A stretch of DNA of 52,895 nucleotides from Escherichia phage LF82-10, in sequence record PV660453. One strand, 5' to 3'. Below are positions 26,990 through 45,842 of this stretch, piece after piece. The position numbers were made by a program, and so were the translations under genes. Numbering within the stretch: position 1 is the first letter of the stretch; each line of letters begins with the position of its first letter. The notes beneath the pieces were generated by a model. That model saw only the letters and a program-made list of their open reading frames with translations, was not told the DNA's origin and made no database searches.

Positions 26990-27448
26990 TCATTGATTAG
27001 CTTTTCGTGCTTTCAGTGTTTTCCAGGATGGTTGCTCCGGCTTGGTTTCTAACTCTTCCTTTCTCACCACGCGCAGCATGTGACGCTTTTTGCATCGGAC
27101 TGTTAGCGGCTTGCCGTTGCCGTCGAATGACAGATCAGGGCGGCACCACGACGCGCGGAAACCTCCGCCATTTCGTTTATATGCGTTGTGCGCCAGTTGC
27201 GCGCCTCGCGCTGAAATCATGCCGCGTTGCCGCCACTCATAAACAACCTGAAGCGAAACGCGCAATTCTTTCGCCAGCTTTGCAGGTGAGCCGTAGAATT
27301 CAAGGATGGTATCTAATCTAGCCTTAAGCCCGGCCTTTACTTCGTCTCGTAAAACATAGTAACCTACTGGACGTTTTCGGCGCTTAGCGTCACTTCCGCG
27401 CTTCGTTCCATTGTTCCCATTAAGCGTGCGTTTATCTACGGTTTCCAT
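26990..27448 (-). CDS. Cro/CI-type HTH DNA-binding protein (candidate regulator)
   Basis: 152 aa, basic; HTH-like segment LAKELRVSLQVVYEWRQRGMIS; its leader contains a TAGCA-box. Confidence 0.55.
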   Translation of the reverse strand: METVDKRTLNGNNGTKRGSDAKRRKRPVGYYVLRDEVKAGLKARLDTILEFYGSPAKLAKELRVSLQVVYEWRQRGMISARGAQLAHNAYKRNGGGFRASWCRPDLSFDGNGKPLTVRCKKRHMLRVVRKEELETKPEQPSWKTLKARKANQ

Positions 27449-27540: not shown

Positions 27541-29610
27541 ATGAAAATCAAGAGCATCAAGAAGCAGATTGAGGAGTTAGGCGAGGATAAGATCGCAGAG
27601 CTTCAAAAGAAATTCACTTTTGGTGACATTGTTCCTTATGCGTATCAGTGCGTCATGTACGACGAGATCGCAAAGCGCATTTCCGCATACAAACACCCAT
27701 TCTTTGTTAAGGCTTCCGTGTCGGCTGGCAAAACAGTTGGGTTTGCCATGGTGGCGGCGCGGTGCAGGGAAATGACTAGCGCAAAGTTTCCAAAGGGTTT
27801 ATCAATGGCAATCCTCGCTCGCCAGGGTGAGATCGTATCTCAGGATAGCCAGGAGCTAACAAACTTCGGCGTGCCGAATAGCGTTTACTGCGCCGGGCTT
27901 GGTACTAAATCTGCATACTTCCCGATCGTCGTTGGCTCTGAGGGTTCAGTTGCAAACGGGCTTTTCAAGGCTCTCGGAGACTTCGCGCCAATGGTTGTCG
28001 GCATCGACGAATGTCACCAGGTGGATTGGGAAGACCTTGCAGACTCGATCGAGAAGAACGAAAGCTATGAGGAAATGAGCAGACCAAAGGATGAGGCTTA
28101 CATGATCAATGGCGAAGTAGTCGATCGCGGGTTGAAGATATCAAGCCTCATGGAAACCCTGGGAACAGTTGCACCAGGTGCCGGGCGCTCTCAGTACACG
28201 ATAATCATTCGTGAGTTGCAGCGTCGATGCCTGGAAGTTCACGGAAAGGAACTACGCATATTCGGCATGACTGGTTCAGAGTTTCGCGGCACAACTCCGA
28301 TCCTTGTTGAGAATATGAAACTCAAAGGCTTCTGGCGCGAGCAGGTAACGAACATTGATACGAACTACCTCATTGAGTTTGGCTCGGTTGTTCCAACCGT
28401 CTTCGGCTCAACTGGCGGGTTAGGCTACGATCTGGAAGAGTTCAAAGCGTCAAGCGAAGATGGAACAAAAGACTTTGACGCGAAAGTAATGAAGAAGATG
28501 GAGGAGAAGATCCACAAGGATGCTTCCATGACGGCAAGAATTATGGCGGCGGTTGTGGAGGAAGCGAAGAAGCGAAACGGCGTTCTAATTACTTGCTCAG
28601 GGCAACGACACTGTAAAGAGGCGGCTAGTTACCTGCCTGAAGGCTCAACGTATGCGATCATTACTGAGAAGACCGGAACGAAACAGCGCCAGCAAATCCT
28701 TGATGATGCAAACCAGGGAAAGATAAAGTACATCTTCCAGGTTGTGGCATTGACGACTGGCGTTAACGTGCCGTTTTGGGATTTCTCCGTGATACTCCGT
28801 AAGATTGGCTCTCTCACATTGCTGATACAGTTGCTTGGGCGCGGAATGCGACTTTTAAAGGCGTGGCAAATCGCAATGGGGATGGTGAAGACAGATCACC
28901 TTGTTTGGGATTTTGCCGGAACTATGGACGAATTAGGCCAACTTTACTTTGACCCGATTCTTGAGGAAGCTCAGTATCAACGCCGTTTCGACTCGAAGAA
29001 GGAGCCTAAAAAATGCCCTATTTGCGGTCATGAAAACAGTTTCTTTGCTCGTCGCTGTATCAGTCGGGATTTGAACGGAAACAGATGTGAGTATTTCTGG
29101 AAGTCGAGAACGTGCGAGGATCAGGTTGACGATCGAACCGGGAAAGTTATTGTGAAGGGTTGCGGTGTTCAAAATGATGTTGTAGCTCGAATCTGTAGGG
29201 GTTGTGATGCTAGCCTAACAGATCCCAACGCCAACTTAACCGGGAAGGCGTACACAAAAAACGACTGGTGCCAGGTTCTCAGCTTTGAGGTTGGGCTTAC
29301 CAAAAACCAGACCGGGATCATTTATAAATATCGCTTGCGTGATATGCTCGGAGAGGAGTTTAACGCATACGAGAAGTTTTTCCCTGAGTCTCAGGCTCAG
29401 GTATGCCACACGATATGGAAAACAAAAGGCGTGCTTCCACACGTTCACGATTCGAAAGTGGCAAAGCTTATGGCAGCATACAGGAGCGCGCGCCTGATCT
29501 TACAAAACGCGCACCACATCGCGCACCCGGTACGGGTTACGCATCGCAAAAACGCAAAGGGCGAAGATATCATTTCGCGCAAGGACTTCGGTCTTAATGA
29601 GGGCTTATGA
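27541..29610 (+). CDS. ATP-dependent DNA helicase (SF2, DExH)
   Basis: 689 aa; Walker A SVSAGKTVG, DECH box (GIDECHQV); C-terminal Cys-rich zinc-finger-like cluster. Confidence 0.8.
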   Translation: MKIKSIKKQIEELGEDKIAELQKKFTFGDIVPYAYQCVMYDEIAKRISAYKHPFFVKASVSAGKTVGFAMVAARCREMTSAKFPKGLSMAILARQGEIVSQDSQELTNFGVPNSVYCAGLGTKSAYFPIVVGSEGSVANGLFKALGDFAPMVVGIDECHQVDWEDLADSIEKNESYEEMSRPKDEAYMINGEVVDRGLKISSLMETLGTVAPGAGRSQYTIIIRELQRRCLEVHGKELRIFGMTGSEFRGTTPILVENMKLKGFWREQVTNIDTNYLIEFGSVVPTVFGSTGGLGYDLEEFKASSEDGTKDFDAKVMKKMEEKIHKDASMTARIMAAVVEEAKKRNGVLITCSGQRHCKEAASYLPEGSTYAIITEKTGTKQRQQILDDANQGKIKYIFQVVALTTGVNVPFWDFSVILRKIGSLTLLIQLLGRGMRLLKAWQIAMGMVKTDHLVWDFAGTMDELGQLYFDPILEEAQYQRRFDSKKEPKKCPICGHENSFFARRCISRDLNGNRCEYFWKSRTCEDQVDDRTGKVIVKGCGVQNDVVARICRGCDASLTDPNANLTGKAYTKNDWCQVLSFEVGLTKNQTGIIYKYRLRDMLGEEFNAYEKFFPESQAQVCHTIWKTKGVLPHVHDSKVAKLMAAYRSARLILQNAHHIAHPVRVTHRKNAKGEDIISRKDFGLNEGL

Positions 29611-30026
29611 TTACTGACAAGGGCGATTATCTTGAATATTACACCCCTGATAAGGGGTGTACCCTGAAGGAAGAGACTCACCAGGTTAACGGCGTTTCGT
29701 GGCTAAAGTACCACTACCCAAACCTGATGTTTTGGCACACGGTCAACGAGGGGCAGAAGCACATAAACACAGCCCTAAAAGATGAGCAAGCCGGGCTTAA
29801 GAAAGGTGTCAGCGACTTCGTATTTCTGATTGGTCATTTCGATCGGAAATATTGCTTTGGGGCTATTGAGCTGAAGCGCACCAACAAGAGCGGAAAGTAC
29901 AAGGCATCACCAGTCAGTAAGGAGCAGAAAGCTTTCCTTCTCGGTGTGCGTGAACGTGGGGGGTTCGCGGCTGTGGCTTACGGATTCGAGGAGTTGAAGA
30001 AAGCCGTTGAGGACATGATGAAATAG
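29607..30026 (+). CDS. VRR-NUC domain nuclease
   Basis: 139 aa; PD-(D/E)XK-like core (DFVFLIG...GAIELK) consistent with VRR-NUC; overlaps helicase stop. Confidence 0.55.
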   Translation: MITDKGDYLEYYTPDKGCTLKEETHQVNGVSWLKYHYPNLMFWHTVNEGQKHINTALKDEQAGLKKGVSDFVFLIGHFDRKYCFGAIELKRTNKSGKYKASPVSKEQKAFLLGVRERGGFAAVAYGFEELKKAVEDMMK

Positions 30027-30812: not shown

Positions 30813-31025
30813 ATGGCTACTGCATTCGGACTGTATAAGGCAAAAGTTATTCGCGCTCTGATGGCGGCTGGATTCAAGCACAACGCGGAGGAATTCGCTG
30901 ATTGCCTTGATATGAGCTTTGACGAGATCAAGCATCTTCACCACACGCAATGGGGAGAATCAATCAAGCGCGATCTCGAAGAGTACCGGAAAGAGAATCC
31001 GCACGAATTCGCAACACAGCACTAA
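30813..31025 (+). CDS. hypothetical protein
   Basis: 70 aa ORF, ATG immediately after dam. Confidence 0.4.
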   Translation: MATAFGLYKAKVIRALMAAGFKHNAEEFADCLDMSFDEIKHLHHTQWGESIKRDLEEYRKENPHEFATQH

Positions 31026-31031
31026 TTGCTA
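31017..31031 (+). promoter_or_regulatory. TAGCA-box variant (CAGCACTAATTGCTA)
   Basis: -10 TATTAT 31054-31059 after hairpin ACCCGG/CCGGGT. Confidence 0.5.
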
Positions 31032-31087
31032 AACGTACCCGGCGAAAGTCGGGTATTATTATTTTACACCAACAAGAGGAATCACCC

Positions 31088-31810: not shown

Positions 31811-31893
31811 TGCGCTGTTTAATTCCTGTATTATTACCGCCGATTATCGGTTTTATTATTATCTATCAACTAATTATGAGTTAAGGATTTGTT

Positions 31894-33030
31894 ATGTCAC
31901 TGAAGAAAATCACCGACGAGCAGTTAAACGCCGAGCGAGAGTCGGGTAAAACTTACCGCCAGATCGCGGAAGAGTACGGAATGAACATACGCACCGTCGA
32001 GGCTCGCGGCGCACGCCTGGCTAAGAAAGGTTTCGGTCACGGTAACGGCGATGCATCGCGATTTGTTCCAGAAGGCTTCATGGTTAAGGGCACATCAACC
32101 ATGCACCGCGCGAACGGAGAGGTTATCGTTAGCTGGACGAAAACCAATCAGGATCATGAGAAGTTAGCCGCCATGCTTGAGCACGCGATCGAGGCGTTTT
32201 GCGTTGAGCTTCCACGCGCAGCCGCTACACCTTCCAACGTTGGTGAGGTGATGGAGAACCAGCTCGCGCTTTATCCTGTATTCGATCTGCATATCGGTGC
32301 AATGGCTCATAAGCATGAGTGCGGCGAGAACTACTCAACCGATATTGCCGAGAAGGTTTTGGGCGATTTCTTCAAGTACGCTGTGAACGTTGCGCCGAAG
32401 GCGAAGAAGGCGGTTGTGCTGGTTGGCGGTGACTACCTCCACTCTGACGGCCTGGACGCTGTAACACCCGCAAGCGGTCACGTTCTGGATCAGGACTCAC
32501 GTTACGCTAAGCTGGTTCACGTTGCCATTCGCTCACTCCGTCGCGGCGTTGCGCTTCTGCTTGATAAGCATGAAGAGATTGAGATCCAGATTATCGAAGG
32601 CAACCACGATCAGGCGGGTATGATTTGGCTACGCGCTGCAATGGCGGCATACTTCGAAGATGAGCCGCGCGTCACGGTTGACACATCGCCTATGATCCTT
32701 CACCGTACCAAGTGGGGCAAAACGCTGTTAGGCTACACTCACGGTCACACGATGAAGAAAGCAGAAACCCGCCTCCAGGCGCTGGCTACTGACTTCCGTT
32801 CTGAGTTCGGCACGAGTGAATTCGTTTATACTCACTCAGGGCATTGGCATCACCAGACGCTTACAGAGCACACCTTAGGCATTGACGAGGTTCACGGTCA
32901 GTTAGGTGCCAAAGATGCGTATGCGGCTCGCGGTGGATGGCGCTCATATCGCCAGGCGGCGGTAATTGTCTATGATAAAGAATTTGGCGAGGTAGGCCGA
33001 TTCGTTTATCGTCCTCAGATGAGCAAATAG
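31894..33030 (+). CDS. HTH domain fused to calcineurin-like metallophosphoesterase
   Basis: 378 aa; N-terminal HTH-like KTYRQIAEEYGMNIRTVEARGARL; phosphoesterase motifs DLH, GGDYLHSD, GNHD, HGH, GHWH in canonical order. Confidence 0.7.
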   Translation: MSLKKITDEQLNAERESGKTYRQIAEEYGMNIRTVEARGARLAKKGFGHGNGDASRFVPEGFMVKGTSTMHRANGEVIVSWTKTNQDHEKLAAMLEHAIEAFCVELPRAAATPSNVGEVMENQLALYPVFDLHIGAMAHKHECGENYSTDIAEKVLGDFFKYAVNVAPKAKKAVVLVGGDYLHSDGLDAVTPASGHVLDQDSRYAKLVHVAIRSLRRGVALLLDKHEEIEIQIIEGNHDQAGMIWLRAAMAAYFEDEPRVTVDTSPMILHRTKWGKTLLGYTHGHTMKKAETRLQALATDFRSEFGTSEFVYTHSGHWHHQTLTEHTLGIDEVHGQLGAKDAYAARGGWRSYRQAAVIVYDKEFGEVGRFVYRPQMSK

Positions 33031-33042
33031 CACTTTTTGTTA
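33028..33042 (+). promoter_or_regulatory. TAGCA-box (TAGCACTTTTTGTTA)
   Basis: TAG is stop of 31894..33030; -10 TATACT 33065-33070 after hairpin AGCCGA/TCGGCT. Confidence 0.55.
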
Positions 33043-33099
33043 AAAGCCGATCGCGTTGGTCGGCTATACTCATTTCATCAACTCAGAGGAGTAACGGAA

Positions 33100-33204
33100 A
33101 TGAAATCTATCTTAATCAACGTGGTCTGTTTTGCATTGGGCGCTGGCGTAGTTGCTTCCAGCCTTTGGGTTATCAATCTCGCTTCAGTATTCAAGGGCTT
33201 CTAA
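33100..33204 (+). CDS. small hydrophobic peptide (34 aa)
   Basis: ATG with SD GAGGAG; single predicted TM segment; below ORF-track size cut-off. Confidence 0.3.
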   Translation: MKSILINVVCFALGAGVVASSLWVINLASVFKGF

Positions 33205-33378
33205 ATGAAAGTTAAATGTATTCGCAATGACTCTAAATCGCTCCCGTTCCATGTGAACCAGTTTTACTCTATCGGGTTCGATCACGGCGGCGGGAACTTC
33301 GAAATTTATGACGGTTGCGGCTCCTGTATTATTGCCCCGCTAAATGGGCATTATCTGGAATTCGTTATCGTCAAATAA
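33205..33378 (+). CDS. hypothetical small protein (MKxKC-family)
   Basis: 57 aa; TAAATG coupling to upstream peptide; N-terminus MKVKCIRN shared with 45397..45762. Confidence 0.4.
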   Translation: MKVKCIRNDSKSLPFHVNQFYSIGFDHGGGNFEIYDGCGSCIIAPLNGHYLEFVIVK

Positions 33379-36814: not shown

Positions 36815-36829
36815 TGGCAAAAAGTGCTA
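36815..36829 (-). promoter_or_regulatory. TAGCA-box (TAGCACTTTTTGCCA) upstream of 528-aa gene
   Basis: -10 TATCAT at 36786-36791 (minus). Confidence 0.5.
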
Positions 36830-36833
36830 TTGG

Positions 36834-37250
36834 TTATAAATATTTTGCTTCAAATGTTGTGCCGTCTGCGATCGAAAATCCAACCTCCTCGCGGTAAAGG
36901 TTCCACGGTGAGCCGTCCTCGTCAAAGATAAGCCCGGCAACCCCACCAAGCGCCCTGCCTGAATCCACCTGGTAGCGCTTGCCAACCTTAAAGGATTTCT
37001 TCATTGGGTTCTTGTGATCCAGCGTCATGCACTTCAGGGTTTTAGTTTTCATCTCAACGAATGTTGCAGCAACGACGCCATCCGATGAAACGAAAATATC
37101 ACCGCTTACGCCAACCGAAAGCACGATCTTAGCCTTGCCCTTGCCGATTGAAATGTTGCCTTCATCGTCAACTTTCGCCTTATACATGTGGTTAGCGTTG
37201 AAGGTTTTAGTTAATGACATGGTGCATTTGATCTTGATTGACTTTGACAT
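36834..37250 (-). CDS. hypothetical protein (IKIKCT N-terminus, MKxKC-family)
   Basis: in-frame ATG at 37250 (MSKSIKIKCT...), SD AGGA; 138 aa. Confidence 0.45.
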   Translation of the reverse strand: MSKSIKIKCTMSLTKTFNANHMYKAKVDDEGNISIGKGKAKIVLSVGVSGDIFVSSDGVVAATFVEMKTKTLKCMTLDHKNPMKKSFKVGKRYQVDSGRALGGVAGLIFDEDGSPWNLYREEVGFSIADGTTFEAKYL

Positions 37251-37307
37251 TTTTAGTTCCTCGTTGTTGGTGTGAATGAATAATAACAAAACCCGCCGAA
37301 GCGGGTT

Positions 37308-37322
37308 TAACAAAAAGTGCTA
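37308..37322 (-). promoter_or_regulatory. TAGCA-box (TAGCACTTTTTGTTA)
   Basis: TAG is stop of 37320..38012; followed by hairpin CCCGCTTCGGCGGG and -10 TATTAT 37280-37285 (minus). Confidence 0.55.
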
Positions 37323-38012
37323 TTTGTAACGGTTGTACTGGAAGACGGCGCGAGCGAATCCGCGCGGAGTTAGGGAGCGGAGTTGCTTAGTCTTCGCAGA
37401 CTTTCCGCCGAGGAACTTCCAGCCCCAAAAGAAATGCAAGCCTTCCTCTTTTGGTAATGGTGCCTTCTCTGGCTCGCGGAAACCGTTGCCATGCCAGATG
37501 CAAGTTTTTTTCGTGTAGCCGTCTCGCAGTGGCATTTTGGGGTGCCAGGAGCCTTCACGCGCATCGACGTATTGCCCGAAGTCACGAGGATGGAAATAGA
37601 ATTTAGGCTTGCCCAGGTTTTCCGGCTTTGACATTGCCCCTACCGGGTTTTCAATCATCCACGGGATCTGGTAGCGTTCGCCAATCTCAATGACAACCTT
37701 TGCACACTCAAGCGCATATTTCATTTCGGCGTCGTCTCTCTCGTGCTGCGCGCCAGATTGGGCAAACAGAGTGCAATCCGGGAAGCCAAAAACGATATCA
37801 GGCTTGGGCAACCCCAGGATCTCAGCCTTTGTGATGAAATCCTTATCAATCCACGTATTCACATATCGGATATTTGGGTGATTCATCTTCACGGCGTACT
37901 CGCCATGATTGCCGGAGTCAGCGTTGAAGCATATCACCTGACAACCAACCTCAGCCCAAGGCAATCCCATAATGCCGGAGCCGTCAAACAGCGACCATAC
38001 AACACGCTTCAT
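37320..38012 (-). CDS. short C5-cytosine methyltransferase-like SAM-dependent protein
   Basis: 230 aa; motif I-like LFDGSGIMG, motif IV-like GFPDC (Pro-Cys region), motif VI-like ENPVG; no room for a normal target-recognition domain; stop TAG embedded in box 37308-37322. Confidence 0.5.
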   Translation of the reverse strand: MKRVVWSLFDGSGIMGLPWAEVGCQVICFNADSGNHGEYAVKMNHPNIRYVNTWIDKDFITKAEILGLPKPDIVFGFPDCTLFAQSGAQHERDDAEMKYALECAKVVIEIGERYQIPWMIENPVGAMSKPENLGKPKFYFHPRDFGQYVDAREGSWHPKMPLRDGYTKKTCIWHGNGFREPEKAPLPKEEGLHFFWGWKFLGGKSAKTKQLRSLTPRGFARAVFQYNRYK

Positions 38013-38230
38013 TCTGCCACCTCTTCAAATTTAGCCACGCCCAGGATTACCCATCCTTTATGGTGCATAGTAACCGCTTGCCACTCGAATGAGCCGTTGC
38101 GGCGCTTCTCATCGCCAGTGATCACAGCATCACCGCCAACCTTCACGGCATCGTAGATTTTACCTTTCGTGAAGTGTGGCTTTTGCTTCTTATCGGTTGG
38201 CGAAACAGCGCCAGTACATTTCAGTTTCAT
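38009..38230 (-). CDS. hypothetical small protein (MKLKCT, MKxKC-family)
   Basis: 73 aa; SD AAGGA; stop overlaps next start (ATGA). Confidence 0.45.
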   Translation of the reverse strand: MKLKCTGAVSPTDKKQKPHFTKGKIYDAVKVGGDAVITGDEKRRNGSFEWQAVTMHHKGWVILGVAKFEEVAE

Positions 38231-38239
38231 TGCAGATCC

Positions 38240-38479
38240 TTAAAATGGAATTTCATCTTTGCAAGCTTGACATACTTTCTCAGGCGTGCATGAGCAGTTA
38301 TAAGCGCAAACAGAAACCGGATTATTGCCGATAACCTTGCTTTCTGATTGGTGATCCATTCCACCAAGAGCATCATCAAGCTCTATGCACCCATAGGCAA
38401 CCATCATTGCCCACTCGTCGTTAAGCCCGGCATCCTTAGCCGCGCGGTGGCGGCTCCAGAAGTTATTGACGTTCTTCAT
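38240..38479 (-). CDS. hypothetical Cys-containing small protein
   Basis: in-frame ATG (MKNVNNFW...) with SD GGGAG inside ORF-track 38240..38770; 79 aa. Confidence 0.35.
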   Translation of the reverse strand: MKNVNNFWSRHRAAKDAGLNDEWAMMVAYGCIELDDALGGMDHQSESKVIGNNPVSVCAYNCSCTPEKVCQACKDEIPF

Positions 38480-38705
38480 TCTCGCGCTCCCGATCCTGAT
38501 AGCCGATTTCAACGAGCGCGGAGCCAGCAGCCTCGACGAATTCCATGTTGCAGCACATAAAGAAAAGTTCCTTGTATTGCTGAGGAACATCAAGCGCATC
38601 GATAATCTCTCTTGCGCGATCTTCATCGATATCGTTGCGATATAGCCCGATCTGGCGCGAATGCATACGGAACGTCGCGCCAGCTTCAATCTTGTTGATA
38701 GCCAT
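38463..38705 (-). CDS. hypothetical protein
   Basis: 80 aa; ATG directly after upstream stop codons, SD GGAG. Confidence 0.4.
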   Translation of the reverse strand: MAINKIEAGATFRMHSRQIGLYRNDIDEDRAREIIDALDVPQQYKELFFMCCNMEFVEAAGSALVEIGYQDRERENEERQ

Positions 38706-38708
38706 TTA

Positions 38709-38933
38709 TTAGCTCCAGGAGTTGATAAACATTGCGTTACCTTCAAGAACCTGAATAACTTCAAACTCACTGTATTTCGTCAGGCCGGAACCTGGGGTTT
38801 TGCCAACCACAAAGGAGCCATCACGGCGAGCGGTAATGCAAATCTGAGTCAGGCCGGATGCGCGATCCAATTTCACGCGAACGGAGCCAGTTTTATCCAG
38901 GTGTGCCATGATATTTGCGGTTTTAACTTTCAT
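38709..38933 (-). CDS. hypothetical protein
   Basis: start placed at in-frame ATG (MKVKTANIM...) with SD AAGGAA; downstream of box 38992-39006. Confidence 0.4.
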   Translation of the reverse strand: MKVKTANIMAHLDKTGSVRVKLDRASGLTQICITARRDGSFVVGKTPGSGLTKYSEFEVIQVLEGNAMFINSWS

Positions 38934-38991
38934 CTTCATTTCCTTGTTTGTTGGTGTAACTGCATTATTGCAGATCACGCCGATTTAGTTT

Positions 38992-39006
38992 TAACAAAAA
39001 GTGCTA
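38992..39006 (-). promoter_or_regulatory. TAGCA-box (TAGCACTTTTTGTTA)
   Basis: TAG is stop of 39004..39351; weak -10 AATAAT at 38964-38969 (minus). Confidence 0.5.
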
Positions 39007-39351
39007 TTTGATGCCGTCAAAGGTTGTGTATTTCAGGTTCACACTGACCTTGCCATCATCGAAATGGAAAGCGGGAGCCTCAAAGCGGATGATGTTATTC
39101 ATCGTTCCGGCCTCTACGTAGCGTCGTGCGCCATTTCTCATGGGGATAACGCTGACTCTCTTTGCCGCATCGAATGGATTTGAAACGCCAAAGTATCGAC
39201 ATACAGCGCCGCGCAACGCCTCATCTTCATGCTTATGCATATCACGGATGAGGCGATTTTTAGCGTCCATCATCACATCATAGCTTGCACAGCTAGAGCC
39301 GATGTTGCTATATTCGCGCATTCCGCCAACCTTGAATTGATTGTTGTTCAT
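39004..39351 (-). CDS. hypothetical protein
   Basis: 115 aa; stop TAG embedded in box 38992-39006. Confidence 0.4.
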   Translation of the reverse strand: MNNNQFKVGGMREYSNIGSSCASYDVMMDAKNRLIRDMHKHEDEALRGAVCRYFGVSNPFDAAKRVSVIPMRNGARRYVEAGTMNNIIRFEAPAFHFDDGKVSVNLKYTTFDGIK

Positions 39352-39596
39352 GGTAACTTTACCTCGTTGTATTCACAGAATTCGATTACATATTCACAGC
39401 TATCGGTTGACTCAGTGCCGCGCAGAACATCACAGCCGCCATCACTACCCAAGAAGGCCGGGCATGAAGCGCACAGCGCGCCGCCGCAATTCGATTCGAC
39501 GATTGACATTCCGTTACACCTTCCGCCGCCGAATCGGTGCGGAAAGTCATAGGCGCGGCAGTCGCACGTAACCTGGTGTCGCTTACGCTTTTGCAT
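39348..39596 (-). CDS. cysteine-rich small protein
   Basis: 82 aa with ~10 Cys in CxC / CxxC-like spacing. Confidence 0.4.
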   Translation of the reverse strand: MQKRKRHQVTCDCRAYDFPHRFGGGRCNGMSIVESNCGGALCASCPAFLGSDGGCDVLRGTESTDSCEYVIEFCEYNEVKLP

Positions 39597-39807
39597 CTGC
39601 CAGCCACTTAGCGTATTTTGCGCGCTGATTCATTGAGCAGGTGATCCCCTCTTCCTTCATGTTGCTCGCGCGGTAGATCTCAACCTGTGATTCCGTGTTT
39701 AACTTGCCATCACGAACGTAAACGGAGCCACGGAAGGTGTGGAAAACTACATCTTTCATGGTTGCAGCCAGCGCCAGGAATTCAGACTTTTTCATCATAT
39801 GTGCCAT
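39583..39807 (-). CDS. hypothetical protein
   Basis: 74 aa; downstream of box 39867-39881 and -10 CATAAT. Confidence 0.4.
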   Translation of the reverse strand: MAHMMKKSEFLALAATMKDVVFHTFRGSVYVRDGKLNTESQVEIYRASNMKEEGITCSMNQRAKYAKWLADAKA

Positions 39808-39866
39808 TTGCTTATCTCCGTTTCGTTTTAGTGGTTACATTATGCCGGGTTTCCGCCCGGCACGTT

Positions 39867-39881
39867 TAGCAATTAGTGCTA
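39867..39881 (-). promoter_or_regulatory. TAGCA-box (TAGCACTAATTGCTA)
   Basis: abuts stop of 39882..40088; -10 CATAAT 39839-39844 (minus) after hairpin. Confidence 0.55.
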
Positions 39882-40088
39882 TCAGATTGATTCGATTACC
39901 GCGTGGAAATCTTTGCGGGTTTTGCAGTCTGCCAGGCGTGCATAACATGCTTTAGCGTAGTCAGTATCGGCCTGAGTTTCGAAGATGCCACACTCTTTGG
40001 CGATAGCTTTTAATGTACGCTTTCCGCTTTCGATATCAGCCTTGATGCCGTTGATGGTGTTGATGTCGATGATGTTAAGAGTTGTCAT
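39882..40088 (-). CDS. hypothetical protein
   Basis: 68 aa; downstream of box 40155-40169. Confidence 0.4.
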   Translation of the reverse strand: MTTLNIIDINTINGIKADIESGKRTLKAIAKECGIFETQADTDYAKACYARLADCKTRKDFHAVIESI

Positions 40089-40154
40089 TTTGCTATCCTT
40101 TTGTGTGCTTCGTTTCGATGGAGTAATAATAGCAAAAGCCAGATCGGGAGTTTT

Positions 40155-40169
40155 AGCAAAAAGTGCTAT
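40155..40169 (-). promoter_or_regulatory. TAGCA-box (TAGCACTTTTTGCTA)
   Basis: -10 TATTAT 40126-40131 (minus). Confidence 0.5.
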
Positions 40170-40230
40170 TTTCCCGATCCGGCGCGCGGAACATCTGCCC
40201 CATGGTTTGGGGTGTTAACCAGTCAGAGCG

Positions 40231-40659
40231 TCATGCGTAATAAAGCCCTGATGTTAGTTTCTCAACGTCAACCTTCGCCTTGTACGGCTTATCACACCCA
40301 AGGCACCAGGCTATATAATCAGCGCCATGATCACAAGACGAAATCCAGACGCGCCATTGCTTTGACCCGGCGTGCCAGCGATACAGAACCTTGTAATCCT
40401 CACTATGGAAGTAAACGCCATCATCATCATCGCGGATGATATGCCCACGCTCAAACAGCTTGAAGCGCTTCACGGTTTCGATGATGTAGCGCGCCTGAGG
40501 GTTAGCGCTCCCGGTTTTGTACACGCGCCCGGCTGACATTTTGCCTTCACTATCACTGATGCGAACCATCGTCATTCCACCATCGACGTGCTGACGGGTA
40601 ACAGTGGCACCACGGCTTTTGGCGAACTCCAGCGCCTTGATCAGATGTTTGTTTTTCAC
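40231..40659 (-). CDS. hypothetical protein
   Basis: 142 aa ORF. Confidence 0.4.
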   Translation of the reverse strand: MKNKHLIKALEFAKSRGATVTRQHVDGGMTMVRISDSEGKMSAGRVYKTGSANPQARYIIETVKRFKLFERGHIIRDDDDGVYFHSEDYKVLYRWHAGSKQWRVWISSCDHGADYIAWCLGCDKPYKAKVDVEKLTSGLYYA

Positions 40660-40871
40660 GCTTTATTCCTCGTTAATTTGAAAGTCAATTCAACCTCGCC
40701 CACAACCTCCGCCATCCCATGATTTACCATGTAACGAAACTCTTCATAGGTAAATGCGGTTTGCGCTGGCAGGCCATCCATGATGCGCATACAAGGCAAC
40801 TCACTGTAGCGCGTCATTGGGATCGCGTACTCGCGCCCGGTTGTCTTAATGCGGATAAGTTTCATTTTCAT
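40656..40871 (-). CDS. hypothetical protein
   Basis: 71 aa; stop overlaps downstream start. Confidence 0.4.
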   Translation of the reverse strand: MKMKLIRIKTTGREYAIPMTRYSELPCMRIMDGLPAQTAFTYEEFRYMVNHGMAEVVGEVELTFKLTRNKA

Positions 40872-41026
40872 TGCGCCTCCATCTCCTCAACTGAACCACA
40901 GTACCCTTTCTCATTGTTGATCTCATCCTCACGAGCAACCGCATCACTCTCTTTAAGCCATACGCTATCAACCTCTGAGTCTCCGCCACTAAAGAACTCG
41001 TGACGCATCACAACGTATACGATCAT
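40868..41026 (-). CDS. hypothetical small protein
   Basis: start placed at in-frame ATG (MIVYVV...) adjacent to upstream stop; acidic C-terminus; weak. Confidence 0.25.
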   Translation of the reverse strand: MIVYVVMRHEFFSGGDSEVDSVWLKESDAVAREDEINNEKGYCGSVEEMEAQ

Positions 41027-41271
41027 AACCACTCCATTGCTTTGATGATGCACTCTGCCTGTGAGCCGATAAACGAGTTGTCTTTGGTATCAGCTCTCCA
41101 CTGACGCGATCCTTTTGCCACCTGGGTGCACGTAATCATAACGCCACCACGATAACCAACCTTGAACGCGTTTGATGTCTTGCCATTACTGCGCTTACGG
41201 AAATGGTCAGTAACGATTACTCCGTTGTCAGTTGCAGCGTCGATTGCTTGCTGAATGGTTAACTTGCTCAT
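41023..41271 (-). CDS. hypothetical basic protein
   Basis: 82 aa, 3 nt after upstream stop. Confidence 0.4.
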   Translation of the reverse strand: MSKLTIQQAIDAATDNGVIVTDHFRKRSNGKTSNAFKVGYRGGVMITCTQVAKGSRQWRADTKDNSFIGSQAECIIKAMEWL

Positions 41272-41274
41272 AAA

Positions 41275-41514
41275 TTACCCCTTGATAGTCAGGCCGAAAG
41301 CCTCAACCAGAATGTCACTTGCAGCGTGCATTTCGCAACGAGCAACCTCACGGTCATCAAAATTCTCTACAGCGTACATCACAACACCACGAGCCTGATC
41401 AGCTTCTACAAACTGGTTGCAACGGTCATTCAGTTCTTTCGCTAACTCAGCGTCAAAATCAGCCGTTACGCCTTCGATAAACTCCGCCTCGGTGATGATG
41501 TTCATGTAGCGCAT
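41275..41514 (-). CDS. hypothetical acidic protein (first gene of leftward accessory operon)
   Basis: 79 aa; downstream of box 41575-41589 and -10 TATAGT. Confidence 0.4.
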   Translation of the reverse strand: MRYMNIITEAEFIEGVTADFDAELAKELNDRCNQFVEADQARGVVMYAVENFDDREVARCEMHAASDILVEAFGLTIKG

Positions 41515-41574
41515 TGCTGTTTCCTCAGTTCGTTTCGTTGAGATAACTATAGCCGAAACATCCTGAGTGGTTTT

Positions 41575-41950: not shown

Positions 41951-42162
41951 AACACTTTATAACGTGTTGTGTTTGTTCCGCCGGACGCGGAGTGATTGAT
42001 ATGTTTCGCGGCCTATTTATGCCTATATTGTGAAATATGGGTAGGGGGATATATACCCCTCCGAAATCCGCAACAAACGCTTAATACGCACTACAACCCA
42101 GCAGGAATGCACCATGTAGAGGAGATTTTGTTGATAATGGCAATAATCGACACAAATTAATC

Positions 42163-42945: not shown

Positions 42946-42960
42946 TAGCACGAACTGCTA
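42946..42960 (+). promoter_or_regulatory. TAGCA-box (TAGCACGAACTGCTA)
   Basis: preceded by GGAATA repeats; -10 CATAAT 42983-42988 inside palindrome GGGGCTATGCCATAATAGCCCC. Confidence 0.55.
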
Positions 42961-43019
42961 AAACACCAGATCGGGGCTATGCCATAATAGCCCTACACCA
43001 ACAAAACGAGGTTAGCACA

Positions 43020-43235
43020 ATGGAAACTGTAACAATCGGCGCTAAGCCGCCATCATTTGACAACTTCCCGTCGCAATTCGTTGAGGATGAATACGGTGAC
43101 GAAACAGAGGTGTCTTTAATTCACTCGTCAGGCAACAAGTCTGTACTCATGGAAAGCGGCAACATGATTTTCACGCCAGATCAGGCGCGCGAACTGGCTG
43201 CGGCTCTCATCAAGGCGGCTGAGGTGTGCGAATGA
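43020..43235 (+). CDS. hypothetical acidic protein
   Basis: in-frame ATG (METVTIG...) after box 42946-42960; 71 aa, Asp/Glu-rich. Confidence 0.4.
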   Translation: METVTIGAKPPSFDNFPSQFVEDEYGDETEVSLIHSSGNKSVLMESGNMIFTPDQARELAAALIKAAEVCE

Positions 43236-43441
43236 AGTTCAAAACTACATACGTATCACCGCGCGCTCGCGTTGCATTCAACCTGCGCAAGGGTATGACA
43301 TACGACGCTGAGAAGATTGGCAATCAGATTTCGGTGCGCGTGCCTATCGGTAGGCTCATCATCAAGCTCCAGGGAGAGAGGTTCATGAGTCGCTCAATGA
43401 CGGGCGAATTACTCGCGGCATGGGAGGAAGTGAAAAAATGA
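43232..43441 (+). CDS. hypothetical protein
   Basis: ATG 43232 overlaps upstream stop (ATGA); 69 aa. Confidence 0.4.
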   Translation: MKFKTTYVSPRARVAFNLRKGMTYDAEKIGNQISVRVPIGRLIIKLQGERFMSRSMTGELLAAWEEVKK

Positions 43442-43746
43442 TGATTTTGAATGACCGAGAGGAGCTACAGGAAGCCGTGAGACTGGCGCTAAAATCAGAC
43501 GTGCCATTTATCGAAGTTGTGCTTTGCGTGGCTGCCAGCCTCGATGTACGGCCCCGTGTGGCTGCTTTCATGGTTCACTCTAACACCTTCGATATGGCTG
43601 GCACATTCCAGGGTGATAAATTCCTTGAATTCTTGATGCAGCTAACCGATAAGTTCGAAGCCATGCATCCTGACCGGATAAGCGCCAGTGGGCAGATCCT
43701 GATCGAGGAGTTCACCAACTTTGTGATTCGCGGTACATGGCGATAG
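43438..43746 (+). CDS. hypothetical protein
   Basis: ATG 43438 overlaps upstream stop; 102 aa; stop TAG embedded in box 43744-43758. Confidence 0.4.
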   Translation: MMILNDREELQEAVRLALKSDVPFIEVVLCVAASLDVRPRVAAFMVHSNTFDMAGTFQGDKFLEFLMQLTDKFEAMHPDRISASGQILIEEFTNFVIRGTWR

Positions 43747-43758
43747 CACTTTTTGTTA
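43744..43758 (+). promoter_or_regulatory. TAGCA-box (TAGCACTTTTTGTTA)
   Basis: TAG is stop of upstream gene; -10 CATACT 43781-43786 after hairpin TGCCGG/CCGGCA. Confidence 0.55.
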
Positions 43759-43816
43759 AACGTGTGCCGGGCTAATCCGGCATACTGTCACCACACCAAC
43801 CAATCAAGAAGTCAAC

Positions 43817-44095
43817 ATGAAGACGTTAAAAGAGATTTTGGCAGAAATTGACGAGGCTGCGCTCAAGGATAATGACGACGAGGCCACAACAAGCAAGAAG
43901 ATCCTGACTTGCGGAGCCACTCACATTGCGCAAGATGCAGACGGCGCAGTATTCGCATTCAGGGGTAAGCCAACCGCCACGAAAATTGAGGATATGACGG
44001 AGTGGTTTAGCGGCGAAAAAGGTGAAGTGCTGTTATTCTGCGCAGACCTGGAAAAGCCAGAAGATTGGACGCAGTGCATTTGGGAGCTGCCATAA
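43817..44095 (+). CDS. hypothetical protein
   Basis: 92 aa. Confidence 0.4.
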   Translation: MKTLKEILAEIDEAALKDNDDEATTSKKILTCGATHIAQDADGAVFAFRGKPTATKIEDMTEWFSGEKGEVLLFCADLEKPEDWTQCIWELP

Positions 44096-44415
44096 TGAAA
44101 AAGTTTGTCGGATCGTGTTTGCTGGTTTCTGTCCTGGCGCTGGCGTTCATCGCTCTCGCAGGGTGTGACGACTCAACCCGCGTGCCTCGTGAGCAGCGTA
44201 GCAAGGTGCGGGTCACAACGGCTGAATCCGGGCGCGTGCAGGTGCGCAAGATCAGCGAATTCCGTGACGACCTGGCTTATGACAGCTATCGAGGCGTGTA
44301 CATCATCACGGACACTGAAACCGGGCAGGAGTTCATAGGCGTTAGCGGTGTTGGTATCAGTGCTATCGGGCAACACAATTGCGGCAAAAACTGCTGGAAG
44401 AAAGATGAGAGATAG
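44095..44415 (+). CDS. putative lipoprotein
   Basis: ATG overlaps upstream stop (TAATG); signal peptide with lipobox LAGC. Confidence 0.5.
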   Translation: MKKFVGSCLLVSVLALAFIALAGCDDSTRVPREQRSKVRVTTAESGRVQVRKISEFRDDLAYDSYRGVYIITDTETGQEFIGVSGVGISAIGQHNCGKNCWKKDER

Positions 44416-44427
44416 CACTTTTTGTTA
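44413..44427 (+). promoter_or_regulatory. TAGCA-box (TAGCACTTTTTGTTA)
   Basis: TAG is stop of lipoprotein gene; -10 CATAAT 44450-44455. Confidence 0.55.
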
Positions 44428-44484
44428 AAACTGCCCGGAGCGATTCGGGCATAATGATTTCACACCAAACGAGAGGAAGTGAAA

Positions 44485-45099
44485 ATGTTTAAATTAGTTC
44501 GCGGCGTAACAACTCCAAATGACATTCTTATCCATGTTGCATCCGGCGCACGCTATGACGTTCCTGACAACACCAAACAGGTTGCAGTAGATCAGGATGG
44601 AGAAATATACGCCTATGAATCCGGCATGGCTAAAGTAGAGCACGGGCACACCGGATGGAGTGATAACGGATATGATGGTTTTGTCAAGTGCATCGGTAAG
44701 ATTCCGAGCGATCAGGAAAACATGCCGAAAGGTGTATTCCCTGGATGGCTGGACTCATTGACAAGCATCGACGCGCTTAAGCTTTCGCCGGAATACGCCC
44801 CGCTAGGCAGTAAGAAAAAGATTGAGATCGCAACACCCGTTCGCATTGGCGGCTCACAACTCCGCGCTCGTGTCACGGAATATCTTGACCGCAAGATGAA
44901 GGATAACGTTGTCGGATCTGTTCGGGCGCGCCACTTCCTTTCTGACATTCGAAGCGAGGGCTTCACGTTCGAGAACTACCGCACAGCCGATCTCGTCCTG
45001 GCTCTGGTTACTATCGGGTGCGATCTCAAGCTGGCTCGTGACTATGCAGCATTCCGCGCCATTGATGATGCGGTTCACTTTGTGCGAGGTGAGGCATGA
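44485..45099 (+). CDS. hypothetical protein
   Basis: 204 aa from ATG 44485, SD GAGGAAG. Confidence 0.45.
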   Translation: MFKLVRGVTTPNDILIHVASGARYDVPDNTKQVAVDQDGEIYAYESGMAKVEHGHTGWSDNGYDGFVKCIGKIPSDQENMPKGVFPGWLDSLTSIDALKLSPEYAPLGSKKKIEIATPVRIGGSQLRARVTEYLDRKMKDNVVGSVRARHFLSDIRSEGFTFENYRTADLVLALVTIGCDLKLARDYAAFRAIDDAVHFVRGEA

Positions 45100-45227
45100 A
45101 CCTAACAACTCTTGAGGCGATCATTGTCGCTACCGCTGGCTTACTCGTTGCTGGCATCATCATTGAGCAAATTGCCTATACCTGGTTGCAGATTGTTAAG
45201 CGCCGGAAGGAGAAAGGTGATGATTAA
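45096..45227 (+). CDS. small hydrophobic peptide (43 aa)
   Basis: ATGA coupling to upstream gene; one TM segment followed by KRRKEK. Confidence 0.3.
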   Translation: MNLTTLEAIIVATAGLLVAGIIIEQIAYTWLQIVKRRKEKGDD

Positions 45228-45324
45228 TGCAATCGGCGCGGCATGTCTTCTTGCTTCCGTCACTGTGGTTGCGGTTGGCGCTGTTTGGCTAATGGCAAAA
45301 ATATTGCGTGAGATTGACGAATAG
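45220..45324 (+). CDS. small hydrophobic peptide (34 aa)
   Basis: ATG overlapping upstream stop; one TM segment; stop TAG embedded in box 45322-45336; alternative is a 70-aa TTG-initiated ORF 45112..45324. Confidence 0.25.
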   Translation: MINAIGAACLLASVTVVAVGAVWLMAKILREIDE

Positions 45325-45336
45325 CACGAATTGCTA
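45322..45336 (+). promoter_or_regulatory. TAGCA-box (TAGCACGAATTGCTA)
   Basis: -10 TATCAT 45359-45364 inside inverted repeat CGGCATG/CATGCCG. Confidence 0.55.
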
Positions 45337-45396
45337 AAACGGCATGGCTCCTGAGTGGTATCATGCCGTTACACCAAACAAACAGGAGTCACCCAA

Positions 45397-45762: not shown

Positions 45763-45774
45763 CACTTTTTGCTA
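45760..45774 (+). promoter_or_regulatory. TAGCA-box (TAGCACTTTTTGCTA)
   Basis: -10 TATAGT 45797-45802 inside inverted repeat AAGGGCA/TGCCCTT. Confidence 0.55.
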
Positions 45775-45842
45775 AAACTTCCGCAAGGGCATTTGATATA
45801 GTGCCCTTATTGAAGCAGAGCAAACCAATCAGAGGATTCAAC

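What the first reader, a model, noticed from the sequence alone, without database searches (positions are those of the whole stretch)
31894..33030. HTH domain fused to a calcineurin-like metallophosphoesterase
The N-terminal ~50 residues look like a DNA-binding HTH and the remainder carries all canonical metallophosphoesterase motifs in order (DxH, GDxxD, GNHD, H, GH, GHxH). Such a fusion could be a DNA-targeted nuclease or phosphatase, or a regulator whose activity depends on phosphoester hydrolysis of a signalling nucleotide. Its stop codon is embedded in a TAGCA-box.
Basis: partly seen in the sequence, partly recalled or inferred. Interest (0 to 1): 0.5.

Follow-up and report, generated by a model that had tools for sequence, protein, structure and literature searches.

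The report
Phage T1 gp16-type HTH–metallophosphoesterase
This gene encodes a DNA-binding helix-turn-helix domain fused to a probably active Mre11-like metallophosphoesterase; it is the already annotated "DNA repair exonuclease" (T1 gp16 family) found in nearly all T1-like phages, and its real job has never been tested.

Summary
ORF 31894-33030 (+, 378 aa) is real. The window is Escherichia phage LF82-11 (100% identity), where this gene is annotated "DNA repair exonuclease". It is the orthologue of phage T1 gp16 (64% identity) and matches PHROG 704 over its full length (E 5e-149).

Residues 8-46 form a three-helix LuxR/GerE/sigma-region-4-type HTH. Residues ~111-378 form a metallophosphoesterase (MPE) core. 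The metal-ligand motifs are DLH131-133, GDYLH179-183 (not GDxxD), GNHD236-239, H283 and GHWH316-319. They are invariant or nearly so in 240 related loci and 116-144 distant representatives.

The family is very large: 4,459 clusters at 50% identity and 2,037 phage records. It is found only in phages and has no Pfam model.

Among solved MPEs the closest are DNA nucleases (Mre11/SbcD). However, there is no capping domain and no Rad50/SbcC partner. Neighbouring genes vary (DNA metabolism, lysis or tail modules), so no conserved partner exists.

Most likely it is a stand-alone, HTH-tethered DNA phosphodiesterase. This is inferred, not shown.

The "TAGCA box" over the stop codon is one of 24 TAGCA-N5-TGCTA palindromes that lie about 41.5 bp upstream of -10 hexamers. 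These are confined to T1-like phages and are not tied to this protein family.

Verdict: an ordinary, already annotated gene of an uncharacterised family.

The parts
31883..31887 (+). Ribosome-binding site AAGGA, 7 nt before the ATG
   Evidence: Read directly from the sequence
31894..33030 (+). CDS of the HTH-MPE protein (378 aa plus TAG). Orthologue of T1 gp16; member of PHROG 704
31894..32067 (+). Residues 1-58: three-helix HTH of LuxR/GerE/sigma-region-4 type. Helices 8-16, 21-27 and 32-46; the last is the putative recognition helix
   Evidence: GerE profile match, E 0.03
32068..32223 (+). Residues 59-110: conserved beta-hairpin (62-86, carrying the near-invariant W81-x-K83) followed by a helix (88-103). 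It links the HTH to the MPE core. Function unknown
32224..33027 (+). Residues 111-378: metallophosphoesterase alpha/beta-sandwich core. There is no C-terminal capping domain
32284..32292 (+). MPE motif I, D131-L-H133 (context FDLHIG)
32428..32442 (+). MPE motif II, G179-D-Y-L-H183 (GDxxH, Mre11-like)
32479..32511 (+). Family-specific conserved insert between motifs II and III: H196-V-L-D199-Q-D201-S-R203-Y-A-K206. Low pLDDT, so probably a substrate or partner loop
32599..32610 (+). MPE motif III, G236-N-H-D239
32740..32748 (+). MPE motif IV, H283-G-H285 (H283 invariant)
32839..32850 (+). MPE motif V, G316-H-W-H319
31017..31059 (+). Nearest upstream boxed promoter-like unit: palindrome CAGCACTAATTGCTA, a GC hairpin, then TATTAT at 31054-31059. 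It probably drives the small ORFs and the MPE gene (inferred)
33027..33070 (+). Boxed promoter-like unit that overlaps the stop codon: ATAGCAC/TAGCACTTTTTGTTA at 33028-33042, a hairpin, then TATACT at 33065-33070. It drives the downstream small ORFs. It belongs to the neighbouring genes, not to the protein
   Evidence: T1 has the same arrangement after gp16

Best explanation
The gene encodes a stand-alone, binuclear-metal (Mn2+/Mg2+-type) phosphodiesterase of the Mre11/SbcD-like branch of the calcineurin-like superfamily. A small N-terminal LuxR/sigma-4-type HTH, and perhaps the conserved beta-hairpin after it, tethers the enzyme to DNA.

Shown:
- the two-domain architecture;
- an intact set of metal ligands kept under strong purifying selection in thousands of phages;
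- no Rad50/SbcC-type partner, no capping domain and no conserved neighbouring gene.

Inferred:
- The HTH takes over the DNA-holding role that Rad50 and the capping domain play for Mre11.
- The enzyme cuts DNA, as an endo- and/or 3'-5' exonuclease, during the middle-to-late phase of infection.
- The most likely purposes are breaking down the host chromosome or trimming ends and secondary structures of replicating or recombining phage DNA.
For: Domains.
- PHROG 704 matches over the full length, E 4.8e-149.
- AF2 model: mean pLDDT 80; HTH, hairpin and MPE core.
- Best Foldseek PDB hits are M. jannaschii Mre11-DNA complexes, E 5.7e-7.
- In a profile search of PDB sequences, the only MPEs that surface are T. 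maritima Mre11/SbcD, with motifs I, II, III and V colinear (SDWHLG / GDLLHS / GNHD / GHIH), and the Lhr-associated 'Nuclease MPE'.

Catalytic residues are invariant.

The HTH is supported across the family, and some members carry two HTHs.

Context.
- In T1-like phages the gene closes the helicase / VRR-NUC / Dam operon.
- In LIMEzero it follows the 5'-3' exonuclease and endonuclease VII.
- The genome encodes no SbcC/Rad50.

Precedent. A stand-alone mycobacteriophage MPE (A10ZJ24 gp48) degrades host DNA in vivo and in vitro. That activity is needed for phage DNA replication in M. tuberculosis (PMC12287305).
Against: - No activity was measured for any member of this family.
- The Mre11 profile match is not significant (E 0.33).
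- The MPE core is net acidic (-6).
- In many lineages the gene sits next to lysis or tail genes rather than DNA-metabolism genes.
- The mycobacteriophage precedent is a different MPE family (4.4 bits against the family profile).
Confidence: 0.5

Rival explanations
1. Nucleotide or second-messenger phosphodiesterase. The MPE core would hydrolyse a small phosphodiester, such as cyclic mono-, di- or oligonucleotide immune signals, or nucleotide-pool intermediates. The HTH would only localise or regulate the enzyme.
For: - In many T1-like phages the next genes encode a polynucleotide-kinase/phosphatase-like protein and a dNMP kinase.
- The variable, moron-like genomic positions resemble those of anti-defence genes.
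Against: - A DNA-binding domain is conserved in essentially every member, and sometimes duplicated. A soluble signal-degrading enzyme has no use for one.
- No match in PADLOC.
- Motifs I and II have the Mre11 flavour.
- As far as I know, the known phage signal-degrading enzymes (Acb1, Apyc1, AcrIII-1) have other folds.
Confidence: 0.15
2. Transcription factor. The HTH would read phage promoter or operator DNA, for example the TAGCA-N5-TGCTA palindromes centred near -41.5 or the promoter of the adjacent lysis cassette. The MPE domain would act as a sensor, timer or co-regulatory enzyme.
For: - The HTH is of LuxR/GerE/sigma-4 type. From general knowledge, dimers of that type act from about -42.
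- There are 24 palindromes in the window against 1.75 expected, each 29-30 nt from a -10-like hexamer and lacking a properly spaced -35.
- The gene sits directly upstream of the lysis cassette in 508 of 522 Drexlerviridae. It lies beside non-homologous endolysins in other lineages. This is the position Q occupies in lambdoid phages.
Against: - The palindrome is restricted to T1-like phages: 272 per 770 kb, against background in all other lineages with the protein.
- Jerseyvirus SETP7 has a very similar recognition helix (RRNVQLRSARLAKKG versus IRTVEARGARLAKKG) but no such site.
- The boxed promoters mostly serve the blocks of small, unannotated non-structural genes (which I take to be early), plus several replication/recombination genes. 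Early genes must fire before any phage protein is made.
- A separate Cro/YdaS-like regulator is encoded at 26990-27448.
- Autographiviridae and N4-like phages, which bring their own RNA polymerases, also keep the protein.
- The invariant catalytic site argues for an enzyme.
Confidence: 0.1
3. Nucleic-acid end-healing enzyme. The protein would be a 3'-phosphatase or 2',3'-cyclic phosphodiesterase that cleans DNA or RNA ends, working with the nearby polynucleotide-kinase-like and ligation functions.
For: - PNK-like genes lie directly downstream in AAS23 and many Drexlerviridae, and two genes downstream in LIMEzero.
- From general knowledge, MPE domains carry out this chemistry in bacterial Pnkp.
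Against: - The phage 'PNK' proteins here are HAD-type (DxDGT) phosphatase-like domains, so a 3'-phosphatase is already encoded.
- Jerseyvirus has the MPE but no PNK homologue.
- The motifs are GNHD/GDxxH, not the lambda-phosphatase type (GDxVDRG/GNHE) used by Pnkp (general knowledge).
Confidence: 0.08
4. Virion-carried or late-acting protein. It would be made with the structural genes, bound to DNA through the HTH, and either packaged and ejected with the genome or used at lysis to destroy unpackaged DNA. This could coexist with nuclease chemistry.
For: - Metagenomic relatives lie co-directionally inside tail modules: after gpK/gpI-like genes and before a 1,752-aa protein, or just before an 'internal virion protein' (PHROG 511).
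- In Jerseyvirus the gene sits between the major tail and tail-chaperone genes.
- The AAS23 homologue gp38 was detected in purified virions by LC-MS/MS.
Against: - The AAS23 detection rests on one peptide and 2.67% coverage, which fits carry-over.
- In Jerseyvirus the gene is on the strand opposite the tail genes.
- In T1-like phages, Autographiviridae and N4-like phages it lies in non-structural regions.
Confidence: 0.07

Closest known systems
Phage T1 gp16 (ST16) / PHROG 704 'DNA repair exonuclease' / 'putative phosphoesterase' of Drexlerviridae
   Same: - 64% identity over 376 aa.
- Full-length profile match, E 4.8e-149.
- Same synteny: helicase, VRR-NUC, Dam, small ORFs, this gene, a boxed promoter, then the lysis cassette.
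- Persistent gene in 508 of 522 Drexlerviridae.
   Different: No real difference: it is a member. The family name is a homology-based guess, and I found no biochemical or genetic study of it.
Mre11 / SbcD nuclease subunits (e.g. PDB 4tug, 2q8u, 7dog)
   Same: - Same metal ligands.
- DxH[LI]G and GDxxH versions of motifs I and II, colinear with T. maritima Mre11.
   Different: - Only 12-18% identity, and the profile E-value of 0.33 is not significant.
- No capping domain and no Rad50/SbcC-binding helices.
- No SMC-type ATPase gene in the genome.
- Has an N-terminal HTH plus hairpin, and a family-specific HxLDxDxRxxK insert.
Mycobacteriophage cluster A MPE (A10ZJ24 gp48, Bxb1 gp47, L5 gp54)
   Same: A stand-alone phage MPE with no Rad50 partner. 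gp48 has phosphodiesterase and DNase activity, degrades host DNA and is needed for phage DNA replication (PMC12287305). It is the best functional analogy.
   Different: - About 255 aa with no HTH.
- Motif I in Bxb1 gp47 is DTQ.
- No family-level similarity: 4.4 bits against the family profile and hhalign probability 2.8%.
Lhr-associated 'Nuclease MPE' (PDB 6nvo/6nvp) and PdeM (TIGR04123)
   Same: Small bacterial MPE DNA endonucleases. They give weak matches around motif III (E about 2, E 0.0011).
   Different: - Matches cover only about 20-35 residues and fall far below the cut-offs (18.4 versus 150 bits).
- No HTH.
- They are encoded next to helicase or ligase partners, which are absent here.
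LuxR/GerE and sigma-70 region 4 HTH domains
   Same: Three-helix HTH. GerE profile match E 0.03 with a T-x-R-E-x-E-V...T-V-R pattern. Fold matches have TM 0.6-0.74. Pfam hits in relatives reach E 1.5e-9.
   Different: Here the HTH is N-terminal and fused to an enzyme rather than to a receiver or ligand domain. Its sequence is the least conserved part of the protein (24% versus 37% identity to distant relatives).
Lambda Ser/Thr protein phosphatase (PPP family)
   Same: A phage-encoded MPE-superfamily enzyme.

Membership tests
Calcineurin-like metallophosphoesterase superfamily | Motifs I-V (DxH, GDxx[DH], GNH[DE], H, GHxH) that supply seven metal ligands, in order | tested here: met
   D131/H133, D180, N237/H238, H283, H317/H319. 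Conserved in 236-240 of 240 relatives.
Calcineurin-like metallophosphoesterase superfamily | Four-layer alpha/beta-sandwich fold | tested here: met
   [not shown]
Calcineurin-like metallophosphoesterase superfamily | Passes the Pfam Metallophos (PF00149) gathering score | tested here: not met
   15.2 bits against a cut-off of 21.5. Among 116 relatives, 27 match PF00149 and 19 match PF12850 at E<0.01. The family is a divergent branch without its own Pfam model.
Calcineurin-like metallophosphoesterase superfamily | Metal-dependent phosphoester hydrolysis | not testable with these tools
   Needs an enzyme assay.
Mre11/SbcD nucleases | Nuclease-domain sequence signature (DxHLG, GDLFH/D, GNHD, GHxH) with significant homology | tested here: inconclusive
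   The motifs are colinear with T. maritima Mre11, but E is 0.33. These are the best fold hits but cannot be told apart from other MPEs.
Mre11/SbcD nucleases | C-terminal capping domain and Rad50-binding helices | tested here: not met
   The protein ends at residue 378, right after the last core strands.
Mre11/SbcD nucleases | Cognate Rad50/SbcC ATPase encoded alongside | tested here: not met
   None among the 92 annotated genes of the identical genome. No conserved neighbour family in 240 loci.
T1 gp16 / PHROG 704 family | Full-length profile match and conserved synteny in Drexlerviridae | tested here: met
   E 4.8e-149 with residues 4-377 aligned to profile positions 2-389 of 390. 64% identity to T1 gp16. 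Synteny is the same.
LuxR/GerE / sigma-70 region 4 type HTH | Three-helix HTH fold with a family-level sequence match | tested here: met
   Helices 8-16, 21-27 and 32-46. Almost all top fold hits are HTH DNA-binding domains. GerE profile E 0.03. Relatives reach E 1.5e-9. The query alone is below threshold (16.4 versus 25.7 bits).
LuxR/GerE / sigma-70 region 4 type HTH | Binds DNA (sequence-specific or not) | not testable with these tools
   Needs EMSA, footprinting or SELEX. Comparative genomics gives no support for the TAGCA palindrome as its target.
PPP-type protein phosphatases (lambda PPase) | GDxVDRG and GNHE motifs | tested here: not met
   [not shown]
Mycobacteriophage cluster A MPE (Bxb1 gp47 / A10ZJ24 gp48) | Family-level sequence similarity | tested here: not met
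   4.4 bits against the family HMM; hhalign probability 2.8%.
Known anti-phage defence proteins (PADLOC) | Match to any PADLOC model | tested here: not met
   No families at E<=1.

The most novel reading that the evidence does not exclude
The HTH-MPE would be the missing factor that reads the TAGCA-N5-TGCTA palindromes centred near -41.5 at about 24 T1-type promoters, which lack a properly spaced -35. Alternatively it would control the adjacent lysis cassette. Either way, phage transcription would be coupled to a phosphodiesterase reaction, and the protein might be delivered with the virion so that it can act on the presumed early promoters. That would be a transcription factor with an Mre11-like catalytic domain, a combination with no described precedent.
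Probability: 0.06. Interest if true: 0.75.

Novelty: new member of a known kind. Interest (0 to 1): 0.3.

Why it matters
The gene itself is not new. It is identical to an annotated GenBank gene and orthologous to T1 gp16.

It belongs, however, to one of the larger phage protein families with no experimental function. The family has about 4,500 clusters at 50% identity and occurs in 2,037 sequenced phages of Escherichia, Klebsiella, Salmonella, Vibrio, Rhodobacter, roseobacters and others. It has no Pfam model.

The label 'DNA repair exonuclease' is only a homology guess. If the protein is a Rad50-independent, HTH-guided Mre11-like DNase, that would identify a simple and widespread way for phages to destroy or process DNA. 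It could also name the long-unassigned host-DNA-degradation function of T1-like phages. That function affects transduction frequency and the triggering of DNA-damage-sensing defences, which matters for therapeutic phages of the Drexlerviridae and Jerseyvirus groups.

Tried and rejected
- Direct sequence search of the PDB with the protein and with the A2 profile found no significant MPE hits; only weak HTH matches appeared.
- NCBIfam gave only a sub-threshold PdeM fragment. PADLOC gave nothing.
- Nine literature searches for any functional study of T1 gp16 or Drexlerviridae 'phosphoesterase' found only genome descriptions. The exception is the unrelated mycobacteriophage MPE paper. A Lamassu preprint and an m6-dAMP preprint were read and proved irrelevant to this protein.
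- I looked for a conserved partner gene. I called ORFs in 240 related loci, ran all-against-all BLASTP clustering and tallied neighbours per lineage. No family follows the gene across lineages. The most widely shared neighbours are endolysins of three unrelated families, and only in a minority of loci.
- I rejected the idea that the downstream 540-aa 'internal virion protein' (PHROG 511) is a split-off part of the MPE. The MPE protein does not match PHROG 511.
- I rejected the sigma-54 promoter reading of the box (TGGCAC-N5-TTGC). The spacing is two bases short and GG is replaced by AG (from the sequence; general knowledge).
- I rejected a homing-endonuclease reading. The gene is persistent and sits at a fixed position in Drexlerviridae.
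- The search for related loci with the broad alignment A4 failed because no stretch was conserved enough.
- I tested the mycobacteriophage MPE for family membership; the result was negative.
Full report
**What is there.** The window is a complete T1-like siphovirus genome. It is 100% identical to Escherichia phage LF82-11/-12/-19/-40; window coordinates equal record coordinates minus 84. The finding is a real gene: ORF 31894..33030 on the + strand, 378 aa, ATG start with an AAGGA ribosome-binding site 7 nt upstream. GenBank annotates it 'DNA repair exonuclease'. It matches PHROG 704 end to end (E 4.8e-149, residues 4-377 on profile positions 2-389 of 390). It is 64% identical to phage T1 gp16/ST16. 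The synteny is the same as in T1: helicase, VRR-NUC, Dam methylase, small ORFs, this gene, then the lysis cassette. [quoted passage not shown]

**The observation checks out.** The MPE motifs are D131-L-H133, G179-D-Y-L-H183, G236-N-H-D239, H283-G-H285 and G316-H-W-H319. The motifs are not degenerate:
- In 240 proteins encoded at related viral loci, D131, D180, H183, N237, H238 and H283 are 240/240. H133 and H319 are 239/240, and H317 is 236/240.
- They also hold in alignments of 116-144 representatives only 30-41% identical to the query.

The family has further near-invariant residues of its own: W81-x-K83 in a beta-hairpin, H196-x-L-D199-x-D201-x-R203-x-x-K206 between motifs II and III, and D341 and G365. 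Two of these segments have low model confidence. That suggests loops which become ordered on binding a substrate or partner.

**The N-terminus is an HTH.** AlphaFold2 gives helices 8-16, 21-27 and 32-46 at pLDDT 82-89, both in the full model and in a separate model of residues 1-58.
- Almost all of the 50 best PDB fold matches of the isolated domain are HTH DNA-binding domains: DosR, EsrB, LiaR, EvgA, VpsT, TraR, SdiA, RcsB, ECF-sigma region 4 and mariner transposase. TM-scores are 0.6-0.74. E-values are not significant because the domain is so small.
- Pfam is sub-threshold for this protein (Sigma70_r4_2, E 0.007).
- Among 116 distant relatives, HTH_1 is hit 23 times, HTH_8 16 times, Sigma70_r4_2 12 times (best 1.5e-9) and GerE 5 times (best 2.4e-8).
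- The family profile aligns to GerE at E 0.03.
- Nearly all members carry a 60-120-residue extension before W81. One longer member has two HTHs.
- The HTH is the least conserved part: 24% identity to distant relatives, against 37% for the MPE core.

**What kind of MPE is it?** The model (mean pLDDT 80) matches MPE structures only.
- Foldseek ranks M. jannaschii Mre11-DNA complexes first (E 5.7e-7).
- In a sequence-profile search of the PDB, the only MPEs that appear are T. maritima Mre11/SbcD (E 0.33, not significant) and the Lhr-associated 'Nuclease MPE'. The Mre11 alignment is colinear through motifs I, II, III and V: SDWHLG, GDLLHS, GNHD, GHIH.
- PPP-type phosphatase signatures are absent.

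The domain therefore works most like an Mre11/SbcD nuclease core, but it is not a member of that family. It has no capping domain. The genome encodes no Rad50/SbcC.

**Size and spread of the family.**
- 4,459 clusters at 50% identity at E<=0.001, of which 919 are at E<=1e-30. Typical length is about 390 aa.
- tblastn finds it in 2,037 phage records of Escherichia, Klebsiella, Salmonella, Vibrio, Flavobacterium, Rhodobacter, Ruegeria and others. 1,947 of these are near full length.
- The few 'bacterial' entries sit on phage-sized contigs of about 50 kb.
- It has no Pfam or NCBIfam model and no PADLOC match.

**Genomic context.** The context varies by lineage:
- T1-like phages: at the end of the replication/modification operon, just before the lysis cassette.
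- Jerseyvirus: a three-gene, opposite-strand island between the major tail and tail-chaperone genes.
- Casjensviridae RcLkye: after holin and endolysin.
- A Vibrio siphovirus: between an endonuclease and an endolysin.
- LIMEzero (Autographiviridae): after the 5'-3' exonuclease and endonuclease VII.
- An N4-like roseophage: next to ThyX.
- Metagenomic lineages: co-directional inside tail modules, either after gpK/gpI-like genes and before a 1,752-aa protein, or before a PHROG 511 'internal virion protein'.

A systematic neighbour tally over 240 loci found no family that travels with the gene. The most shared neighbours are three unrelated endolysin families, and only in a minority of loci. The protein is therefore self-contained.

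**Most likely mechanism (inferred).** The protein is a stand-alone DNA phosphodiesterase. The HTH, perhaps with the conserved hairpin, holds DNA in place of Rad50 and the capping domain. The binuclear centre then cleaves the DNA. The best functional analogy is the mycobacteriophage cluster A MPE. A10ZJ24 gp48 has phosphodiesterase and DNase activity, fragments host DNA in vivo, is toxic through its catalytic residues, and is needed for phage DNA replication in M. tuberculosis (PMC12287305). That protein is a different MPE family and has no HTH, so the analogy is functional only. From memory, T1 is known to degrade host DNA, and the gene responsible has not been assigned. I could not check this in the library.

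My confidence that the protein is an active MPE with a DNA-binding HTH is about 0.85-0.9. My confidence that its substrate is DNA is about 0.5. Any specific biological role is less certain still.

**Rivals.** The alternatives are:
- a small-molecule or signal phosphodiesterase;
- a transcription factor;
- an end-healing phosphatase working with the PNK-like neighbours;
- a virion-carried or late-acting protein.

The end-healing idea is weakened because the phage 'PNK' proteins are themselves HAD-type phosphatase domains (DxDGT), and because Jerseyvirus lacks them. The virion idea rests on tail-module contexts and on one LC-MS/MS peptide (2.67% coverage) for the AAS23 homologue (PMC8004638).

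**The TAGCA box.** The stop codon TAG (33028-33030) does lie in ATAGCAC.
- The box is a 15-bp inverted repeat, TAGCA-N5-TGCTA. The window has 11 perfect copies and 24 with at most one mismatch, against 0.05 and 1.75 in shuffles. T1 has 10 and 21.
- In 22 of the 24 copies a TATAAT-like hexamer on the gene-ward side starts 29-31 nt from the palindrome centre (two, at 6029 and 25923, show no clear hexamer at that distance). This puts the centre near -41.5.
- The embedded TTGCTA is 21-22 nt from the -10, too far to serve as a normal -35.
- GC hairpins often fill the spacer, and the T1 record annotates those as terminators.
- The copy over this gene's stop codon drives the downstream small ORFs. 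T1 has the same arrangement after gp16.

The palindrome occurs 272 times in 770 kb of T1-like loci but only at background level in all other lineages that carry the HTH-MPE. Jerseyvirus SETP7 has a very similar recognition helix but no such site. It has a different palindrome, AATAG-N4-CTATT, at its promoters. Nothing therefore ties the HTH to the box, although lineage-specific recognition is not excluded. A Cro/YdaS-like regulator at 26990-27448 is an alternative reader of the box.

**Verdict.** The finding is correct but ordinary. The remaining interest is that this very large phage family has never been studied experimentally. Its name is a guess, and it may represent a simple Rad50-independent Mre11-like DNase.

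Noticed in passing
window, 24 sites, e.g. 19703, 22233, 25923, 27462, 30024, 31017, 33028, 36815-41574 (- strand), 42946-50903 (+ strand): The 'TAGCA box' is an inverted repeat, TAGCA-N5-TGCTA. There are 11 perfect copies and 24 with at most one mismatch, against 0.05 and 1.75 in shuffles. In 22 of the 24 the palindrome centre lies 29-31 nt from a TATAAT-like hexamer, so about -41.5, and there is no correctly spaced -35. These look like activator- or operator-type promoters. The same element is in T1 (10 and 21 copies) and in 58 of 61 T1-like loci, but not in other phage groups. The binding factor is unknown.
   Followed up: partly
window 31035-31056, 33043-33064, 37270-37300 and others; T1 (L009) 38973-39001, 41980-42007: The spacers of many boxed promoters contain GC-rich hairpins followed by T-runs that merge into the -10 hexamer. 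The T1 record annotates these as rho-independent terminators. The intergenic cassettes therefore appear to be combined terminator and promoter units about 45 bp long.
   Followed up: partly
L008 (Salmonella phage SETP7) 14330, 26541, 30458, 36800, 37671: Jerseyvirus has its own repeated palindrome, AATAG-N4-CTATT, with 5 perfect copies that overlap -10 regions. One copy lies directly upstream of the gp23-gp22(HTH-MPE)-gp21 island. It is enriched in Jersey-like loci (24 in 263 kb).
   Followed up: partly
window 33205-33378 (+): A 57-aa ORF between the MPE gene and the holin is a DUF7244 stand-alone SH3 domain (Pfam E 5e-27). It is the lysis-module-associated SH3 recently described for phage KanT1 (PMC13164509).
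   Followed up: yes
window 33101-33204 (+): A 34-aa, strongly hydrophobic ORF (MKSILINVVCFALGAGVVASSLWVINLASVFKGF) lies just downstream of the boxed promoter and upstream of the SH3 gene. It may be a small membrane protein of the lysis region.
   Followed up: no
window 47930-48397 (+); T1 (L009) 4948-5478; LIMEzero (L007) 5314-5817: The genes annotated 'polynucleotide kinase' carry the HAD phosphatase motif DxDGTLSD and align with one another. They correspond to the 3'-phosphatase half of T4 Pnkp, not the kinase half.
   Followed up: partly
window 29607-30026 (+) and 26990-27448 (-): The 'hypothetical protein' after the helicase is a VRR-NUC nuclease (Pfam E 5.4e-9). The 152-aa 'transcriptional regulator' has a weak Cro/YdaS-type HTH and faces a boxed promoter at 27462.
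   Followed up: partly
L010 6001-8830; L012 1776-4568; L152-group loci: In several metagenomic phage lineages the HTH-MPE gene lies co-directionally inside tail or virion modules. In some it sits immediately before a 540-aa PHROG 511 'internal virion protein'. In others it sits between gpK/gpI-like tail genes and a 1,752-aa protein with a peptidase-like motif.
   Followed up: partly
L253 (Bxb1) 5876-6788: In this copy of the Bxb1 record the product name 'site-specific recombination directionality factor RDF' is attached to gp46 (46 aa). From memory, the published RDF is the MPE protein gp47, so this is probably an annotation shift.
   Followed up: no
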